DNA of 64,000 nt from Eledone cirrhosa (lineage: Eukaryota). The notes under the pieces are model-generated. The model was not told the origin of the DNA, ran no database searches, and saw only the letters and a list, made by a program, of their open reading frames with translations. The stretch spans positions 248,001-312,000 of the forward strand of contig CAXHJY010001105.1 of assembly GCA_964016885.1 (NCBI GenBank), read 5' to 3'. The number at the start of each line of letters is the position of its first letter. The stretch's first letter is position 1. The translations under genes were made by a program, and so were the position numbers. Positions 3,279-58,801 of the stretch are shown in pieces.

Positions 3279-6063
3279 CATCATCATCATCATCATCATC
3301 AGGTTTAGCGTCCGTGTTCCACGCTTGCATGGGTTTGGACGGGGGTTTTCCCACTTGAGGCAAGAGTGGTTGTCTTGCTCGCATAGGACTGTCTGGCGGG
3401 TTTTCTATAGCTGGATGCCCTTCCTAACACCAACCACATTTACAGTGTGGGGCTGGGAGGTTTTTACTGTGTTGCCTACATGGCCACATTACAGCGTGGA
3501 CTGTGTGTTTTTTTGTCGTGACACCTACACAACCTCATTTGTTTCGGCCTGGATGTTGTGGGACCAACATAACTTTACATTGAAAGGGGCGGTGTGGATG
3601 GGGTGGAGGTGGTGGGACGGGGTGTGTTTTGATAGAGATGCCTACTGACTGTAGTAGGTTTTTACTTTGTATTTAGGTAAGGCGGGTCTTCTCTATTACT
3701 GAGTACCGCCAAAGGTCTCGGTCCAGTGACATTGTCTTGGAGAGGTGTAAGCGTGTGAGGTCGGAATTTATCAGCTCGTCCCATGTTTTTCTGGGTCTGC
3801 CTATTCCGTGGCTACCGTCTATCTTTATTGCCCTGCACTTTGTTATACAGCTGTCGTCTTTCATGCGCATCACGTGACCGTACCAACGTAGCCTTCTCTC
3901 GAGTAAACAACATCTGATCCCTCTTATTTCTAATTTTTTCCTTAGTTCGTTTATGCTTTGCCGTTCACGTATATTACTATTGCACATCCTGCGGAGCATG
4001 CAAGCTTCGTTCCTCTCTAGTCTGCGTATATCCTCTGCACACAATGCCCAGGTCTCACTGCCATGCAGCATTGCTGTTCGTATGCAGGCATCGTATAACC
4101 TGCCTTTCATTTTTAGGGAGAACCCTCTAGCGGCTAATAGTGGTATAAGCTCTCTGAACTTTTTCCATCCAGTTTTGACTCTAGCTACTGTACTTTCAGA
4201 GCACCCTCCCCCACTGCTGATTTTGTCACCCAGGTAACGGAAGCTGTCCACTATTTCTATAGAACCCTCTGCGCAGTTGAAGGAGCTAGTATTTTGTGGG
4301 CACTTGCTGCTACTTATTGCACCAGAGCACCGGCCACATGTAAAATCTATGTTCTTAGTTAGCTTACCTGTGATCCCACTACATCTTTTATGCACCCATA
4401 CTTTGCAATTGGGACATAAAATGGAGTTTCTACCTACGCCTTTCCTACACACTGAGCATGGCCATTTCCCAGATGGGACCGCTGCCTTATTTTCTTTCCT
4501 ACAAACTAGAACTTTAGTCTTAGCCAGGTTAATTTTAAGGCCTTTTGATTCTAGGCCGTGCTTCCATGTTTGGAATTACTTCTCTATTTCGGTCATTGAT
4601 TCAGCTATAAGCGTTAGATCATCTGCGTATAGGAGTTCCCATGGGCAGCCGGTCTTGAACTCCTCTGTTATAGCCTGAAGGGCAATAATAAATAGTAGGG
4701 GGCTAAGAACAGAGCCCTGATGGACACCAACTTTTACACTAAACTCTTCACTATATTCGTTGTTAATTCTAACCTTGCTGACTGTTTCTTTATACATGGC
4801 TTGTATAGCTCTCACAAGCCATTCATCAACACCTAGTTTTCTAAGAGCCCACCAGATAATGGAACGGGGGACTCTGTCGAAGGCTTTCTCCAAGTCGACG
4901 AAAGCTAAGTATAGCATCTCAGCAACTATTTCCGAAGGACCAGCCGCCTTACCCGTCTTCATATCTTTGATTGCCTTGCTTATTGTACTACCCTGGACTA
5001 ACACTGCTGGTCCCTCTATTGGGTCGATGTGGGGGAGACTGTCTTTCTCCCATTTGTTCTCCTCATTTAGAAGCCTTTCGTAGTGACACTTCCAAGCTAC
5101 CTTCTTATCAGCGTCGGTGATGGCAAGTATGCCATCATCGTTAAGTACACACTTCTCCCCGACAATATCACGGTTTTCCTTGACACATTGCCTGGCAATC
5201 CTGAACACCTCACGTTTTTGGTCCTCACGTTGTAGAACATACTTGAACTTTCTTTCCTCTGCTTCCCTTCTTGCGAAGTACACTTGTCTCCTAGCTTCCC
5301 TCCTGGCCACTTGATAGTCTTCTCTACTTCCCCCATCCCGCCATACTTTCCAAGCCTGCTTTTTGGCCTTAATTGACTCCTCCACCTTACTGTTCCACCA
5401 CCATGTTACTCTCCTCCTACCTACAGGCCTGCTCCAGCCACAGACTTAGTCTGCCGCCGTCAGCAGGTTTGCTCTCAGGAATTCCCACTGTTCCTCTATA
5501 TTATACAACTCTAATTGCTCTTCCTTACTGTCGAAAGCGTCAAGTAATATGCTTTGAAATTTATTTCTGGCTATGGGGTCCTTTAGCTTCCATATTTTTC
5601 TCCTGAGGATAGTCCTCTTCCGCTGTCTAGTACGTCTCGTCCTGACTATGAGGTCGCTAATTATCAGTCTATGTTGGGAGGTGAATTCATCATGGGGGAG
5701 GGATTTAGTGTTTACAACAGACACTCTGTCACGTCTTCTGGTAAGGATATAATCTACCTGGCTTGTGTGTTCCCCCGATCTATAGGTGATCAAGTGATTG
5801 TCTCGTTTTTTGAAGTTAGTGTTACAGATAGTTAAGTTATTTGCGTTGCAGAATTCCAGGATTCTGGAGCCTTCCTCATTTCTGGTACCGAACCCATAGC
5901 CTCCATGGATTCCGTCATAGCCGTCACAATGTTGTCCAACGTGACCATTTAGGTCGCCTGCAATAACTATATAGTCAATGTCGCTTATTTGGGAGGTAGT
6001 GAGCATCAGTGTCTCGTAGAATCTGTCTTTTATAGCGCCGGGCAGTCCGGATTGGGGTGCGTA
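3279..6063 (-). mobile_element. 5'-truncated RTE-clade LINE (partial APE, RT with internal deletion, 3' UTR, (TGA)n tail)
   Basis: ORF pieces 5446-6006 (GDLNGHVG, QVDYIL, SQHRL), 4576-5385 ([27 protein letters not shown]) and 3673-4452 ([12 protein letters not shown]...GRPRKTW); (cat)n tail at 3279-3300. Confidence 0.93.
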
Positions 6064-18178: not shown

Positions 18179-18521
18179 GGAGGCACATGGCTTAGTTGTT
18201 AGAGCATTGGCCTTGCAATCGAAAGGTTGTGAGTTCAATTCTCACACCGGGTGATGTGTTGTTTCCTTGAGCAAGACACTTTATTTCACATTGCTCCAGT
18301 TTACTCAGCTGTAGAAATGAGATGATAGGGACTGGGGTCCATATCATTCCACTGCAAAGTGGTCGTGGAGGTGCCACGGCAAAAAAGCACCCAGCACTCA
18401 CTGTAAATGAGGTTGGTGTTAGGAAGGGCATCCAGCTGCAGAAATAAAGCCAGAATCAGTTCCCGTCCCACCCTTGCAAGCAGGGAAAAGCGGACTTAAA
18501 ATGATGATAAAATGATGATGA
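18179..18521 (+). mobile_element. Full-length tRNA-derived CORE-like SINE with RTE-derived 3' tail
   Basis: A box tggcttagttg, B box gagttcaattc, MIR-CORE-like ccttgagcaagacactt, 3' part matching the RTE 3' UTR, (tga)n tail. Confidence 0.9.
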
Positions 18522-26272: not shown

Positions 26273-29149
<2,877 letters not shown>

Positions 29150-29231
29150 TATATACATATATATATATATACATACATATATATATATATATATATACAT
29201 ATATATATACATATATATATATATACATACA

Positions 29232-29387
<156 letters not shown>

Positions 29388-29400
29388 CATATATATATAT

Positions 29401-29436
<36 letters not shown>

Positions 29437-29437
<1 letters not shown>

Positions 29438-31630
29438 TTACAACGTGAGGACCAGAAACAGGAGGTATTCAAGATTGCGAGGCAGTGTGTCAGAGATAGT
29501 TGTGATGTCATTGGAGAGAAGTGTATCCGGAATGATAAAGGTGAGCTTGCCCTCACAAGTGCTGAGAAGAAAGATGCATGGAAGAGTCATTATGATAGAT
29601 TACTAAATGAGGAGAATGCATGGGAAGAAGAGACCCTACCCCACGTAGACCCTATAGAGGGACCAGCAGTACAAGTCAGCGGCAGCGTAGTAAGTAAGGC
29701 GATATGAAGATAGGGAAGGCAACCGGTCCATCGGGTATAGCTGCCGAGATGCTGAAGGCATCTGGGTCTGTAGGTCACACTATAACCACACGTATCGTTA
29801 ACCAGGTAATACTAGAGGGGGCCATACCAAAAGATTGGTGCAGTAGCATCATTGTCAACTGCTACAAAGGTAAAGGCGATGCACTAGATAGAGGAAACTA
29901 TAGAGGTATAAAGTTGATGGACCAGGTCATGAAAGTAACAGAAAGAGTTATAGCACAGTTGATTAGGGACCGGGTGAATATAGACGAGATGCAATTTGGG
30001 TTTGTACCAGGGAAAGGCACCACTGATGCCCTCTTCCTTGTGAGGCAATTACAGGAAAAGTACCTAGCTAAAAGTAAGCCACTCTACTTGGCATTTGTCG
30101 ACCTTGAGAAAGCCTTTGACAGAGTTCCACGTGCAGTAATCTGGTGGGCTCTTAGAAAACTAGGAGTAGATGAATGGCTTGTGAAAGCGGTACAAGCCAT
30201 GTATAGGGGAGCAGTCAGCAAAGTTAGGATTGGCAATGAGTATAGCGAGGAATTTAGCGTACAGGTTGGGGTCCACCAGGGCTCTGTTCTTAGCCCTCTC
30301 CTGTTCATCATAGTCCTGCAGGCAATAACGGAGGAGTTTAAGACCGGATGCCCATGGGAACTCCTGTATGCTGATGACCTCGCACTCATAGCTGAATCTA
30401 TGGTAGAACTAGAGAATAAATTCCAAACCTGGAAGCAGGGACTAGAGAGAAAGGGCCTCAAAGTCAACATGACAAAGACTAAGGTCCTTATAAGTAGACG
30501 AGAAAACAGAACCCAGATCCCCTCAGGGAAATGGCCTTGCTCAGTATGTAGGAAAGGTGTAGGTAGGAACTCCATTCTCTGCCCCAAATGCAAACAATGG
30601 GTACACAAGAGATGTAGCGGGATTTCAGGAAGCTTAATTAAGAATGTAGGATTCACATGCAGCAGCTGTGCTGAAACAGCAAGCAAACAGCCACAGGAAA
30701 CAAGTACCACCAATCTCTGGGAGGGCCCTGTAGAAACAGTAGACAGCTTCTGCTACCTAGGTGACCGAATTAGCAACGGAGGTGGGTGCTCAGAAAGTAC
30801 AATAACTAGGGTAAGAACGGGATGGAAGAAGTTTAGGGAACTACTACCACTGCTAGCTGCAAAAGGCTTCTCCCTCAGAATGAAAGGCAGACTGTATGAT
30901 GCGTGTATCTGAACAGCGATGTTGCATGGTAGTGAGACCTGGGCGCTGAAGGTGGAAGACTTACGTAGATTAGAGAGAAACGAAGCCTGCATGCTCCGAT
31001 GGATGTGTAACAGTAATATACGTGAACGACAAAGCATAAATGAATTGAGAGAGAGACTGAGCATAAGAGGAATCAAATGCTGCGTGCAGGAGAGGCGGTT
31101 ACGCTGGTATGGACATGTGATGCGTATGAAGGATGACAGCTGCATAAAAAGGTGCAGAGCACTAGAAGTTGATGGAAACCGCGGAGTGGGGAGACCCAAG
31201 ATGACTTGGGATGAGGTGATAAAAGCCGACCTTACCCAACTACACCTCTCAAAGTCAATGACACACGACCGTGACTTCTGGCGTCACGCAGTAATACAGG
31301 GTACCCGACCTCCCATGGGTACATGCTGAAGCATATAAACAATACGCCCCCCCCCCCCCCCACCGCAAGGTGGTCGTGGAGGAGCCACGGCAAAAAAGCA
31401 CCCAGCCCACACTGTAAAGTGGACGTGTAGGCACCACGAAAAAGCACCCAGCACTCACTGTAAATGAGGTTGGTGTTAGGAAGGGCATCCAGCTGTAGAA
31501 ATCAAGCCAGATCAGTTCCTGTATGAGCAAGGCATGGTCAGACGACCAGACACTGCCCACAACAGGACAACCCGTCTAACCCATGCTAGCGTGGAAGAAC
31601 GGACGTAAAACGGTGATGATGATGATGATG
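29437..31630 (+). mobile_element. 5'-truncated RTE LINE (RT, 3' UTR, (TGA)n tail); frameshift at ~29700 and stop at 30910
   Basis: ORFs 29704-30912 and 30919-31329. Confidence 0.95.
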
Positions 31631-31797: not shown

Positions 31798-32130
31798 TCA
31801 TCATCATCATCATTTTATGTCCTCTTTTCCCTGCTTGCAAGGGTGGGACGGGAACTGATTCTGGCTTGATTTCTACAGCTGGATGCCCTTCCTAACACCA
31901 ACCTCATCAGTGAGTGCTGGGTGCTTTTTTGCCGTGGCACCTCCACGACCACTTTGCAGTGGAATGATAGGGACTCCAGCCCCTATCATCTCATTTCTAC
32001 AGCTGAGTAAACTGGAGCAATGTGAAATAAAGTGTCTTGCTCAAGGAAACAACACATCACCCGGTCTGAGAATTGAACTCACAACCTTTCGATTGCAAGG
32101 CCAATGCTCTAACCACTAAGCCATGTGTCT
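31798..32130 (-). mobile_element. Full-length CORE-like SINE
   Basis: Same family as 18179-18521. Confidence 0.9.
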
Positions 32131-32367
32131 CTCTATATATATATTTATATACATTCATACACAGTAAAAAGCACCCAGTCCACACTGTAAATGTGGTTGG
32201 TGTTAGGAAGGGCATCCAGACATAGAAAACCAACCAGAAACAGTCCTATATGAGCGACACATGGGCACCCGACCCAACTTGCCTCTAAATGGGACAAACC
32301 CGTCTAACCCATGCTAGCGTGGAAGCTGGACGTTAAACAATGATGATGATGATGATATATATATATA

Positions 32368-32700
32368 GGCACATGGCTTAGTGGTTTGAGCATCGGCCTT
32401 GCAATCGAAAGGTTGTGAGTTCAATTCTCAGACTGGGTGATGTGTTGTTTCCTTGAGCAAGACACTTTATTTCACATTGCTCCAGTTTACTCAGCTGTAG
32501 AAATGAGATGATAGGGACTGGGGTCCCTATCATTCCACTGCAAAGTGGTCGTGGAGGTGCCACGGCAAAAAAGCACCCAGCATTCACTGTAAATGAGGTT
32601 GGTGTTAGGAAGGGCATCCAGTTGTAGAAATCAAGCCAGAATCAGTTTCCATCCCACCCTTGCAAGCAGGGAAAAACCGGACGTAAAATGAAATGAAATG
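32368..32700 (+). mobile_element. Full-length CORE-like SINE
   Basis: Same family as 18179-18521. Confidence 0.9.
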
Positions 32701-32704
32701 AAAA

Positions 32705-33380
32705 TATATATATAAATGAAAATAGAGAAATTAATGTAAGCAAAATGCCAACAATAAATTCAGACATATAAGTGACTATACCATCAAGATGAACAAATTT
32801 TTAAAGTAAGATGAGGGAAAAGTAATACAATCTTAATTTAAAACAAATCAAGAAGAAAAACTTTATCCTCAGACTTTGTGTAAGTTGGGGAAAAAGCAGT
32901 ACAATCTTAATTCAAAATAAAATCAAGAAGAAATACTTAACCGTCAGTTTGGGGAAAACTACAAATGCACTATATAGTCTTAAAAGACTATTTCACAAAA
33001 CTTTTCAGTGGGGTTAGTCACGGTTGAAGTTGATCTTCAGTAGTGTTCAACACATTAACCAAATCATCACTGCTAAAATGCCGGAGGGGAATTAAAAGCA
33101 GGCAAGCGACAGCGTGTAGAAATGAAATAACAAAACCCACGTGGACACAAGCGGGATGAGACGAAAAAGCTGTTTACAAGAAACAACAGTCAAAACATTC
33201 CGAAAAAAACTCATCAAAAATATGGAGTTCAGCATAAGCAATATTATCGCAGTTTTTTTTGTTTTTTTTTAAACTGGGATTAGTCACAAATATCAAGTAG
33301 CACTCTAGGAAAACTCAGAGTATATATATATAAAGGAAAATAGAGAAATTAATGTAAGCAAAATGCCAACAATAAATTCA
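32705..33380 (-). mobile_element. ~620-bp non-coding unit with ~55-bp terminal direct repeats and a hammerhead motif (32968-33045)
   Basis: gaaaatagagaaattaatgtaagcaaaatgccaacaataaattca at both ends; minus strand cacta-CTGAAGA...GAAA-tagtctt-tt-aagacta-TA-tagtg. Confidence 0.65.
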
Positions 33381-33419
33381 TATATATATATATATCAGTA
33401 TTGGTGCTCTGAAATAGCG

Positions 33420-33618
33420 ATGTATACATAAATGTATGTATAATATATTTGGCAATATACTGTATGTTTAATTAAAAACATTTTGAAGACCATACGCTAT
33501 CAGTTTTAAAGTAGTGACATAGTCACTTACTTTAAAACTGATAGCGTATGGTCTACAAAATGTTTTTAATTAAACATACAGTATATTGCCAAATATACTG
33601 TACATACATTTATATATG
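33420..33618. repeat. Near-perfect palindrome, ~90-bp arms
   Basis: tttggcaatatactgtatgtttaattaaaaacattttg...gtgac-ata-gtcac...caaaatgtttttaattaaacatacagtatattgccaaa. Confidence 0.9.
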
Positions 33619-33800
33619 CAATGATATTAAATAAATGGAAACTATATTTATAAAACTATATTTATTCTATTATATATATTTCAAGGGTACCAAAAATGTT
33701 GGTACGCTATCATCAGATAAAATACGAAGTGTGTTTTATAAATTTTGACATAACCAAGGAGAATATGTCTTAACGGTTCACGTTTTCCTTGGATAGTCAT
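33619..33800 (-). ncRNA. Family-B hammerhead-containing unit (motif 33663-33724)
   Basis: Minus strand tattttat-CTGATGA-tagcgtaccaa...ttggtaccctt-GAAA-tatatat-a-atagaata. Confidence 0.72.
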
Positions 33801-33816
33801 ATATATATATCTAATA

Positions 33817-34165
33817 GAGACACATGGCTTAGTGGTTAGAACATTGGTCTTGCAATCGAAAGGTTGTGAGTTCAATTCTCAGACCGGGTGATGTGTTGTT
33901 TCCTTGAGCAAGACACTTTATTTCACGTTGCTCCAGTTTACTCAGCTGTAGAAATGAGATGATAGGACTGGGGTCCATATCATTCCACTGTAAAGTGGTC
34001 GTGGAGGTGCCACGGCAAAAAAGCACCCAGCCCTCACTGTAAATGAGGTTGGTGTTAGGAAGGGCATCCAGCTGTAGAAATCAAGCCAGAATCAGTTCCC
34101 GTCCCACCCTTGCAAGCAGGGAAAAGTGGACGTAAAATGATGATGATGAGGATGATGATGATGAT
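33817..34165 (+). mobile_element. Full-length CORE-like SINE
   Basis: Same family as 18179-18521. Confidence 0.9.
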
Positions 34166-55343: not shown

Positions 55344-55364
55344 GTCCTTCCTCTTTTAACCAAC

Positions 55365-58300
55365 ATGGCTGATATAAGAGTTGGGTGTCTGAATGTACGT
55401 GGCCTGGGACTGTCTTGGAAACAAGGCAAACTTTTAAACGATCTCAGGTCGCATAGAATGGATGTAATGGCTATTTGCGAGTCCAGGATCAGCAGCGAGC
55501 ACCAACTGGCGCCCCTCTTCGACGACTTTGAGATCTTCGCATCTCTCTGTCAACCGGGGGGTGGGGGTGGAGTTGTCGTTCGGCTGCGAAAACACCTGGG
55601 CCTCGCCATACAGAAGGTGCACCTGGACCCGGAGGGTCGACTGGTGGTTTTAGACGTCGGCAGTAGTGAAAGTGGAGCCCTTAGACTAATAGCTGTGTAC
55701 GCCCCTTTTTGGGCAGCGTGGCCGGAATACTTCCAACGCCTGGAAACTTTTCTGGGAACGTCCCGCTCCTTGCTTTTAGTGGGGGACTGGAATGGTATCC
55801 TGGATGTACGTTGGGACTATGTAGGGGCATGTGCCAATAGAGGGGGGTGTAAAAGCCTCAAAAGGTTAATCGGCCGATTTGACCTGGCCGATAGATATCG
55901 ACTAGATTTTCCGACTGTACCACTATGGACGTGGACCAATCGCAGTGGAACATCTAGGTCGTACCTAGATAGGGTCCTAGTTAGAGAGAACGATAGGGAC
56001 ACATTTAGCTGTCCAAAAATGTTCATGGTTGACTATTCGGATCACAAGTTAGTGACCTGCATAGCCAACCTTGATAGAACCCATAGACAGGGACCCGGTT
56101 ACTGGAAGCTGAACTTGTCCTTACCGAGAAGCAAAGCTTACAGTAAACGGATTAGCACCTTAGTTAAGCAGAGTTTGACAGGGGCAATTGTCAACAACAG
56201 GTGGTGGAGCTCTCTTAAGAGAGCAATTAGAATAGAATCGATAGGTTTTAGTCAGGAATTAGCAAGGGGTAGGAACAAGACGGAAAGGGAATTAGTAGAT
56301 AGAGTAGAAGAGGCGATTAGGAGTGGCAATGTAGCCGGCGTGCTGGCATCAAGAATGGCCTTAGACCAGTTCTTTGAGGTGAAGCATGAAGGCTGCGTTG
56401 TCAGGAGTAAAATACGTGCTCTGGGTAATGAGGGAGCCAAAGCTGTGAGCTGGGCCCGAGTGACAGAGGCAAAAAGTGGGAACAAGTCCACGATTCGGTC
56501 TTTGAAGGACCAGGATGGGCGTGTGATCCTTGAACCTGGGCAGATGTGTGCGGCCTTTCAGCGGCACTTTGCACGACTGTTCGAGAGGGGCGGCGCGCCG
56601 GGTGAGACTATGGATTTCAATCCATACCTCGACGGTCTGCCGCGCCTCTCGGACGCGGAGGCGAAGTCCTGCGAAAGGACGATTTCAGCTGCTGAGATAG
56701 GGGCGGCGCTGAGCCAATGCGGCAAACGCAAATCCCCGGGTCTCGATGGTCTACCATACGAGCTATATGTAGCGATGCCGGACTTGTTCTCCGATATCCT
56801 CGAAGCGGTCTACTGCAACTGGCAGCAGAACGGGAGAATTCCCAGTTCTGTGACCAAGGGCGTAGTTACGCTGGTGAGGAAGGATGAGAACAAGGGGGAT
56901 GGCATAAGTAACTTCAGGCCCATAACTCTGCTAAATACAGAGTTAAAGATTTTGGCCAAGGTGTTAGCGAAGAGGTTGGCGCTTGTCGTTGGAAACCTGG
57001 TGGGAGAAGCGCAGACATGCGCAATCCCGTCCAGGTCCATTCACGACAATCTCCACCTTATGCGATACATCATAGAGAGGGTAGGGAATGAACCCGGCTT
57101 TGGTGGGGCCCTGATCAACTTGGATCAATCTAAAGCTTTCGATAGGGTTGACCATCGTTACCTGGATGCAGTGCTCGCGGCGGCAGGCTTCGGACCCGTT
57201 TTCAGGGGTTGGATTGCTGCGATGCACAGCAGCAACGTCTGCCCAAGGGTCAAGGTGAACGGCCACCTCTCGGAGCCGTTCCAAATCATGCGATCCATCC
57301 GACAGGGATGCCCTCTCTCCTCCCTACTGTATGTGCTGGCTCTTGAGCCACTACTGCGGAAGTTGGAGCGGTTGCAGGGCATCCCTTTGGAACCGGGATT
57401 GTAGAAAGCGGCGTCGGCCTACGCCGATGACGTGACAGTAATGGTGTCGAAAACCTCGCAAATCGGTGAGATCGGCACCTTACTGGAGGAATATGAAAGG
57501 TTTACAGGAGCCAAGCTGAACCGGGACAAGTCCGTCGGTTTGCAACTCGGAACATGGAGAGGCAGACCGATGCCCTCCAACGACGTCGTCGGACGCTGGA
57601 CGGAGGACCCGGTGAAGCTGCTTGGGGTCTGGTTCGGACCAGACCTCCAGGTGGAGAAAAACTGGAACGAGGTAACGGCCAGGGTGTTTGCACTCACCCA
57701 GAAGTGGGCCCAGTGCAAACTATCCCTGAAAGGTCGAGCGGAGGTGGCGAATACTTATATAGCATCCGTCATCTACTACCGCTTGACCGTCGTGCCTTGC
57801 CCAGTGAAAAGACTCGCCAAAATGGAGTGCGCGCTGTTCCAATTTCTTTGGAACAAGCGGACCCCTTTGGTGAGGAGATCCATTGCTGTCAACACCCTTC
57901 GAAAGGAAGGCTGGGGATGCCGTGGCTACAGATGCGTAAACACGCATTAAGGCTACGGCACCTCCAGGTATTCCTCACCGGTCAACCGGTGTGGGCCCCG
58001 TTTGTGAGGCGAGCCTTTCCCAGACTCGTCTCGCTCACCGAGCTGCAATCCTGGGTCAAGCAAAGACCGAGAAAAGTGGGCGACTGGCACATTGAATGTG
58101 CCCAGGCGCTCACGGCCCTCTGGAAAGCGGACCCGGCAATCAGTGGAGACTCCACCTCGACATTCTATAGAGGGTTGGTACGCAGCAGGTGCGACGATGC
58201 TCTCGGAGAAGCTCTAGGCATGGAGGAAGATGAACTGGCCAGTCTGTTCAGTAGGACGTTTGGCCCTGGACCGATGGACAACTTCCAAAAGTCCCTGGCT

Positions 58301-58801
58301 TGGCAGTGCTACCGAGGGGCTCTACCCGTTCGAGACAAGCTCCACAGGCATGGGAGCCTGGGTAGAGATCCTTTGAATAAGATCTGTCCGAGATGCGTGC
58401 ATGATGACGAAACCGTTGCGCACGCATTCGTACACTGCCCAGGCATTGCTGACCTGTGGGGCTATGTGGAACGACTACTGTCGAGGGTGGGACCAATCCG
58501 GTTGACCACCGAGTCCATTGTCACGATCAAACCGCCTCCCCCTTTCAAAAACGAAGGAGAGGCGGTTTTTCTCTGTGTGATAGCCATGGCTAAAGAAGTT
58601 GTATGGTGGACGAGGCTGAAAGGGCTGAGGTCAGACACCTTTCTCTCCGGCCAACAATTGGTCCCCTTTTTCAAATACCATTTTAAAAGAAGGATCAGAA
58701 TGGAGAGAGAGGTGCTCTACCCCAGCAAGTTTTATGAAAGGTGGGTGAAAGTAGGGAGAATGGCCAGAGTGAATGGGTCTTCTCTCTATATCAGCCTGTA
58801 G
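55365..58801 (+). pseudogene. Tx1-like ORF2 (APE endonuclease, RT, C-terminal zinc finger); in-frame TAG at 57402 and frameshift at ~57880
   Basis: LNVRGL, VYAP, GDWN, SYLDRV, SDHK, GYWKLN, KSPGLDG, NFRPITLLN, LDQSKAFDRVDH, IRQGCPLS, AYADD, CPRC..ETVAHAFVHC. Confidence 0.93.

What the first reader, a model, noticed from the sequence alone, without database searches (positions are those of the whole stretch)
32705..33380. Retrozyme-like monomer: ~620 bp, terminal direct repeats, hammerhead with a full stem III
Seen: a ~55-bp direct repeat bounds a non-coding unit in TA context. Its minus-strand hammerhead has an 8-bp stem III (atagtctt/aagactat) and 5-bp stem I, unlike the minimal ones, although stem II is imperfect. 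It is sense to the PLBD2 pre-mRNA. Established: terminal redundancy is what reverse transcription of a circular or tandem RNA leaves. Inference: a candidate circRNA-derived non-autonomous element that might cleave as a monomer.
Basis: partly seen in the sequence, partly recalled or inferred. Interest (0 to 1): 0.72.

Follow-up and report, generated by a model that had tools for sequence, protein, structure and literature searches.

The report
Pseudoknot-braced hammerhead retrozyme, rolled-over copy
This is one aged copy of an abundant 619-base non-coding jumping repeat that carries a conserved hammerhead (predicted self-cutting RNA) motif, and its short terminal repeat is likely the start of a second lap of copying around one RNA, probably a circle, by a Penelope-type enzyme: a new family of a known kind, the animal retrozymes.

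Summary
Confirmed. The minus strand holds a 619-nt non-coding unit plus a ~56-nt repeat, with a type I hammerhead, sense in intron 1 of a PLBD2-like gene. It is a dispersed family (229 exact matches of a 29-nt end). Copies share one 3' end in (TA)n and have variable 5' ends, so the repeat is no target duplication: it is a partial second unit of 0-462 nt. This copy starts at the family's commonest 5' junction, an internal TA microhomology (18 of 83). Copies run through the cleavage site without pile-up, and the two repeats of a locus share rare variants (30 of 170, 3 expected). That fits rolling reverse transcription from one internal start on a circle or an uncut multimer. A 74%-identical sister family shows compensatory changes in stem I and in a 12-pair helix joining the 5' flank to loop II, a likely pseudoknot. 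With one ribozyme, this copy cannot excise a circle. Cleavage, circles and the partner element are not shown. The scan noted similar retrozymes before in this genome; none matched this family by sequence.

The parts
32715..33333 (-). One full 619-nt unit (u1 = 33333, u619 = 32715); non-coding, 32% GC; the 3' end at 32715 is the family's fixed end
33334..33388 (-). 5'-truncated partial second unit (u564-u619), the 'direct repeat'; its outer 8 nt are TA letters shared with the flank; carries the same private 1-nt insertion as the 3' copy
32967..33046 (-). Type I hammerhead: stem I 33046-33041 with 32972-32967, core 33040-33034, stem II 33033-33030 with 32998-32995, GAAA 32994-32991, stem III 32991-32974, predicted cut between 32973 and 32972
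33048..33061 (-). 5' strand of a 12-pair helix with loop II (predicted pseudoknot)
33015..33026 (-). Loop II strand of the predicted pseudoknot helix
32806..32947 (-). Two internal ~68-nt repeats 74 nt apart (82% identical), predicted hairpins; not hammerheads
32727..32761 (-). Predicted hairpin 12 nt upstream of the fixed 3' end, also predicted in the sister family; candidate binding site of the reverse transcriptase (inference)
33321..33333 (-). Internal TA run that follows u619 in the unit; homologous to the (TA)n targets; inferred priming site
32704..32714 (.). (TA)n at the 3' junction, at the tail of a tRNA-headed short repeat
33381..33396 (.). (TA)n at the 5' junction

Best explanation
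The stretch is a 1.09-unit, 5'-truncated genomic copy of an abundant 619-nt non-coding repeat with a conserved type I hammerhead, likely an animal non-LTR retrozyme that a Penelope-like element's enzyme likely copied from a predicted circular RNA into a (TA)n microsatellite. Shown: family, fixed 3' end, variable 5' ends, partial tandems, TA targets, shared rare variants, covarying stems. Inferred cycle: a rare source copy with two hammerheads is transcribed; the ribozymes, braced by a pseudoknot, cut out one unit; a host ligase closes it; the Penelope endonuclease nicks (TA)n; reverse transcription starts at one internal site where the RNA itself has a TA run, 258 nt 3' of the cut site; it runs through the rejoined cut site and, in about one insertion in ten, past a full lap; the 5' end is joined at TA-like microhomology, most often at u559-567. 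That produced the ~56-nt repeat here. This copy is likely dead as a source; at most it may cut the intron once.
For: Family: 2832 first-look candidates, 40 scored; 229 exact matches of a 29-nt 3' motif, 0 for the reversed control. 78 of 85 arms end at u611-u19. In the pattern-selected sample 68 of 73 such arms have a TA run at the 3' end and 47 of 73 within 14 nt of the 5' end. Of 83 insertions with a terminal match, 35 pass the cut site, 33 go beyond u353, 1 stops at u355-366 (1.3 expected), 8 exceed one unit; 18 start at u559-567 (15 in the first lap against 2.2 expected; 3 of the 8 second-lap copies). The two repeats of a locus agree at 272 of 308 polymorphic sites (59% expected at random) and share 30 of 170 rare variants (3.0 expected). 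Two copies hold two whole hammerheads (L005, L006); the sister family reaches 2.5 units (L297). Covariation: two stem I pairs and one pseudoknot pair change on both sides between families; 93.4% of cells paired against 29-40% when slid. Three units fold as circles better than shuffles (z -4.7 to -7.1, only 12 shuffles each). RT plus GIY-YIG frames of up to 938 aa exist in the genome, and one such family also ends in (TA)n. Cervera and de la Pena (PMC7229834) show circles and RtcB ligation for other animal retrozymes and a U-U base of stem II in one of them.
Against: Every DNA footprint also fits an uncut linear multimer; Frangieh et al. (PMC11167929) found uncut RNA to be the main substrate of a Penelope enzyme in vitro. 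Four of 26 loci (L002, L006, L017, L095) differ between their two repeats at three to seven shared polymorphic sites outside or besides the hot spot u535, which one circle alone does not explain. In the sister family the within-locus divergence is below the between-locus median in only 8 of 16. No long arrays of this family turned up: longest 1.75 units among 40 scored. Without the pseudoknot, stems I and II are rarely predicted (P>0.5 in 11 and 2 of 42 copies; 0.00 for this copy), so the extra helix could instead be an inhibitory fold. The compensatory changes stem from about one lineage split, and one shuffle measure is not significant (104 of 500). No partner element with shared sequence among 50 Penelope loci. 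Li et al. found cleavage in only 1 of 9 tested frog dimers.
Confidence: 0.62

Rival explanations
1. Same non-autonomous Penelope passenger, but the template is an uncut linear read-through transcript of tandem copies, with internal initiation; the hammerhead acts later or rarely and no circle is needed.
For: No stop at the cut site is expected of uncut RNA too. Mosaic repeats in 4 of 26 loci fit a parent with two different units. PMC11167929 (parts 1-2 of 4): ribozyme mutants did not change insertion in vitro. The extra helix is the predicted minimum-energy fold and might block cutting.
Against: A linear template cannot give daughters longer than the parent, and no parent above 1.75 units was found in this family (top 40 only). 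No difference between upstream and downstream repeat recurs in the same direction across loci. The core and stem I are kept across a 26% divergence.
Confidence: 0.26
2. The unit is the pseudo-LTR of an autonomous Penelope-like element, and these are solo or truncated terminal pieces.
For: An autonomous family in this genome has a 3' non-coding part of similar length with a hammerhead and TA-target ends. Li et al. report retrozymes related to pseudo-LTRs.
Against: Copies longer than one unit continue into the unit's own 3' end; no shared extension into another body was seen in the arms. No similarity to 50 GIY-YIG loci; the single hit was an independent fragment of the sister family. The RNA model found nothing there.
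Confidence: 0.07
3. The host keeps this copy as an intronic ribozyme that regulates the PLBD2-like gene.
For: It is sense in intron 1; the catalytic letters are intact and the two CpG-type changes in stem II happen to keep the pair.
Against: It is one of hundreds to thousands of copies, about as diverged as the rest, with a lost stem I pair and a 10-11 nt deletion elsewhere; nothing marks it as selected.
Confidence: 0.03
4. A single-copy sequence whose repeat is a long target-site duplication and whose hammerhead is a chance match.
For: None beyond the missing Rfam hit.
Against: The repeated sequence is the family's own 3' end at unrelated loci and its length varies from 0 to 462 nt.
Confidence: 0.01

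Closest known systems
Animal non-LTR retrozymes (Cervera and de la Pena 2020, PMC7229834; Li, Clavereau and Pollet 2026, 10.64898/2026.07.22.740005)
   Same: Non-coding, low-GC repeat unit with one type I hammerhead; dispersed monomers and partial tandems; coexists with Penelope-like elements; U-U at the base of stem II as in axolotl HHR_Amex2.
   Different: 619 nt (above the 170-400 nt of Cervera, inside the 51-972 nt of Li); 7-pair stem III; ~31-nt loop II with a predicted 12-pair pseudoknot in place of the usual loop 1-loop 2 contacts; almost no whole dimers; RNA and cleavage untested.
Penelope-like elements with endonuclease (Craig et al. 2021, PMC8557442; Frangieh et al. 2024, PMC11167929)
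   Same: 5' truncation, partial tandems, (TA)n targets, hammerhead, a fixed internal start of reverse transcription downstream of the ribozyme.
   Different: No ORF; only one 3' end (no 30-40 nt tail seen); a head-to-head inverted 5' copy in only 1 of 83; the start site is homologous to the target, whereas PAc starts at a non-homologous site.
Pseudoknotted hammerheads (Perreault et al. 2011, PMC3088659)
   Same: Weak stem II, U10.1-U11.1 mismatch tolerated, base-paired contact between stems I and II.
   Different: Here the helix is up to 12 pairs and sits in a high-copy animal retroelement; it is predicted from covariation only.
Plant LTR retrozymes (as described in PMC7229834 and 10.64898/2026.07.22.740005)
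   Same: Size near 600 nt; direct repeats at the ends; circle-based model.
   Different: Those have type III hammerheads in each LTR, PBS, PPT and 4-bp duplications; here type I, one ribozyme, and repeats of variable length that lack it.

Membership tests
Animal non-LTR retrozyme | Type I hammerhead with conserved core in the unit | tested here: met
   Core intact in 53 of 64 copies, N7 variable, stem I covaries
Animal non-LTR retrozyme | No protein-coding frame; low GC | tested here: met
   No ORF of 70 aa or more in the unit; 32% GC
Animal non-LTR retrozyme | Head-to-tail units with two or more hammerheads somewhere in the family | tested here: met
   2 of 85 arms (L005, L006); sister family up to 2.5 units
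Animal non-LTR retrozyme | This copy itself has two hammerheads (Li's criterion for an active element) | tested here: not met
   One match in the window; it is a monomer-type copy
Animal non-LTR retrozyme | Self-cleavage | not testable with these tools
   Needs an in vitro assay; folding without pseudoknot does not favour the active fold
Animal non-LTR retrozyme | Expressed as unit-length linear and circular RNA | not testable with these tools
   No RNA data could be examined
Animal non-LTR retrozyme | Target-site duplication longer than 4 bp when present | tested here: inconclusive
   Both flanks are (TA)n, so a duplication cannot be read
Penelope-like element, autonomous | ORF with RT and GIY-YIG endonuclease | tested here: not met
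Penelope-mobilised insertion | Fixed 3' end, 5' truncation, partial tandem | tested here: met
Penelope-mobilised insertion | Preference for microsatellite targets | tested here: met
   68 of 73 arms end in a TA run
Penelope-mobilised insertion | 30-40 nt tail or second 3' end; inverted 5' copy | tested here: not met
   No recurrent second end among 85 plus 84 arms; head-to-head arm only in L222
Penelope-mobilised insertion | Sequence kinship with the pseudo-LTR of an autonomous partner | tested here: inconclusive
   None in 50 loci out of 10596 GIY-YIG candidates
Plant LTR retrozyme | Type III hammerhead inside each of two fixed-length LTRs | tested here: not met
   Type I topology; the repeat lacks the ribozyme and varies in length

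The most novel reading that the evidence does not exclude
A monomer-cleaving, pseudoknot-braced hammerhead makes a ~620-nt circular RNA that a Penelope enzyme copies by rolling from a single TA-homologous start, one-armed and without the tail; the genomic copies record this cycle, including template switches between circles, and so make the long-proposed circle-to-genome step of animal retrozymes directly testable.
Probability: 0.4. Interest if true: 0.62.

Novelty: new member of a known kind. Interest (0 to 1): 0.42.

Why it matters
How animal retrozymes return to the genome is proposed but unproven. This family gives readable footprints: one start site, free passage through the cleavage site, a second lap from the same template, and microhomology-set 5' ends. 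It names the RNA to test with a Penelope enzyme. The ribozyme design (weak stem II, long loop II, covarying extra helix) may be a useful variant. The locus itself is an ordinary old copy with no sign of a role for the host gene.

Tried and rejected
Rfam at gathering score: only two tRNA-like hits, no hammerhead. Strict descriptor scan missed the motif. A first reading with the second CTGAAAA in loop II as the core was dropped once the true core upstream was seen. The 74-nt internal repeats are not hammerheads: the CTGAGGA is not kept in the sister family. Sequencing runs: no RNA holder listed; the three contig sets of one sample hold the family but no empty-site allele or informative joint was listed. 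Partner search: a recalled Pfam accession was not in the library; GIY-YIG loci gave one hit, which proved to be a sister-family fragment in a TA run; the RNA model over the genome returned only high-scoring matches (128.8 bits or more) in its top 150, which I did not examine one by one, and nothing in the 50 Penelope loci. An apparent gap of 5' ends over the ribozyme in similarity-selected copies vanished in the pattern-selected sample. A slight excess of 5' ends just 3' of the cut site (11 against 6.7, p 0.06) is not significant. Two-armed head-to-head insertion, a lead from earlier notes: 1 of 83 here. Whole-unit RNAalifold gave no net covariation term (+0.91). No promoter analysis was done. 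Orientation bias in introns was not tested.

Full report
Observation. The 67-nt repeat (96%, spacing 618), the TA flanks and the absence of ORFs are as described. I number the minus-strand unit u1 (33333) to u619 (32715). The hammerhead reads: stem I CACTA, core CTGAAGA, stem II with a U-U base and three pairs, a loop of about 31 nt, GAAA, stem III of 7 pairs with a tetraloop, UA, TAGTG; the predicted cut is 32973|32972, 258 nt upstream of the 3' end. Rfam does not detect it. The host gene is a phospholipase B-like gene on the minus strand, closest to mouse PLBD2 in the PDB, with a first exon at 41228-41014; the element is sense in intron 1. The genome is 3.0 Gb; earlier scan notes call it octopus, which I did not verify.

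Family. The unit has 2832 first-look candidates, with 84-92% identity among the 30 best. A 29-nt 3' motif has 229 exact matches and the reversed control none. Among 85 distinct arms from similarity searches, 78 end at u611-u19, that is at u619 plus the unit's own TA run. Copies longer than one unit continue into the unit's own 3' end; overlaps reach 462 nt.

Length distribution. Of the 100 listed pattern matches (229 in all), 83 are the terminal motif of an insertion that I scored. I left out 5 second matches in the same insertion, 11 where the match was an internal junction only, and L217. Starts were read by hand from BLAST ends. Median length is 232 nt; 48 stop before the cut site, 35 pass it, 8 exceed a unit. 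One stops at u355-366 against 1.3 expected, so the template is continuous across the cut site. Eighteen start at u559-567, a TATAT stretch: 15 in the first lap against 2.2 expected, and 3 of the 8 second-lap copies. The window copy starts at u564. Its ~56-nt repeat is thus the commonest outcome of overrunning one lap. Because flank and element share TA letters there, the exact junction is uncertain by several bases.

Same template. In 25 loci with overlap, the two repeats are closer to each other than to the median other copy in 20 (mean 7.0% against 9.8%). They agree at 272 of 308 polymorphic sites and share 30 of 170 rare variants against 3.0 expected; 20 of the 30 come from three loci of a rarer subfamily. 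The window's two repeats share a private extra T. Against a pure single-circle model, L002, L006, L017 and L095 are mosaic in u435-u619, and the sister family gives only 8 of 16.

Ribozyme. The core is intact in 53 of 64 copies and N7 takes all four letters. A sister family (634 nt, 74% identical, same 3' end type, up to 2.5 units) supplies divergence. On 48 selected rows (chosen from the 64 plus 28 at hand, leaving out large indels and many near-identical rows), two stem I pairs change on both sides, and so does one pair of a helix between the 5' flank (33061-33048) and loop II (33026-33015). These are about three events on one lineage split, not 20 independent ones. The helix shares no base with stems I-III and leaves a 16-nt linker, so it can be a pseudoknot; Perreault et al. 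(PMC3088659, passages) show that such pseudoknots are common and needed for fast cleavage, and that a U10.1-U11.1 mismatch occurs. Nearest-neighbour folding cannot model it: it predicts that helix and stem III but not stems I and II. An inhibitory role is not excluded. This copy lost one stem I pair and has an A-U for a G-C in stem II.

Mechanism. Shown: end structure, target, read-through, shared variants, covariation. Taken from papers: circles and RtcB ligation of other animal retrozymes (PMC7229834; abstract, Results parts 1-2 of 3, Discussion; supplements not read); kinship of retrozymes with pseudo-LTRs and cleavage in 1 of 9 tests (10.64898/2026.07.22.740005; parts 1-3 of 5; supplements closed; its four invertebrates are three insects and a coral); partial tandems, tails and TA targets of Penelope-like elements (PMC8557442, passages); internal initiation and use of uncut RNA (PMC11167929, parts 1-2 of 4). 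Inferred: circle, ligase, Penelope enzyme, priming by TA homology. Long RT plus GIY-YIG frames are present, but no partner shares sequence with the unit in the 50 loci checked.

Novelty. The kind is known. The listings of searches showed no paper on this family or on cephalopod retrozymes by title or abstract start; most of those papers were not opened, and subscription papers are not searched. Earlier scan notes describe similar families in this genome, including predicted pseudoknots; none matched this family or its sister by sequence. I found the helix before reading the pseudoknot notes. What sets this family apart is the single 3' end without tail or second arm. Verdict: a real feature, a new family of animal retrozyme, with this locus an old copy that cannot make a circle.

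Noticed in passing
G000, e.g. L196:1503-2476 minus, L297:544-2125: Younger sister family, 634-nt unit, 74% identical, 3777 first-look candidates, same single 3' end in (TA)n, up to 2.5 units; better material for finding an active source.
   Followed up: partly
window 33069-33062 and 33029-33026 (u265-272, u305-308); also u62-79 and u530-540: Short hypervariable patches (44 haplotypes in 54 copies at the first) flank the two strands of the predicted pseudoknot and can differ between the two units of one locus (L006, L297). Cause unexplained.
   Followed up: partly
window 43663 and 44277, + strand: Two near-identical hammerhead motifs with a short palindromic stem III, 614 nt apart; possibly a dimer of another family.
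   Followed up: no
window 36173 +, 36431 -, 36573 +, 20338 -: Further hammerhead motifs of the same short-stem III type; a decayed one appears on the minus strand near 33665-33725.
   Followed up: no
window 32363-32690, with copies at 31825-32142 and 33814-34125: tRNA-headed short interspersed repeat; the element sits in the TA run at its tail. Similar heads score as tRNA at 18188 and 50568.
   Followed up: no
window 33413-33513 and 33528-33628: 101-nt inverted repeat (92%) of another repeat directly beyond the 5' flank.
   Followed up: no
L163:2760-6090: Head-to-head palindromic Penelope-like insertion whose arms end at two different 3' sites about 50 nt apart, both in (TA)n: the tail signature that the family under study lacks.
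   Followed up: partly
L109: A copy of exactly one unit in another phase (u308 to u307) without TA flanks; unexplained.
   Followed up: partly
L002, L229: Tail-to-tail inverted duplications in which both arms start at the same position; in L002 about 300 nt of flank is mirrored too, so likely fold-back duplications.
   Followed up: partly
window 3676-5445, 27545-29437, 29698-30909, 55344-58798: LINE-type frames: RT followed by a PHD finger in three places, and an endonuclease-RT-zinc finger element.
   Followed up: no
window 32968-33035: Contig depth in runs X1-X3 is about ten times higher over stem III and loop II than over most of the unit, hinting at further abundant families that share this part (summed depth, rough).
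   Followed up: no
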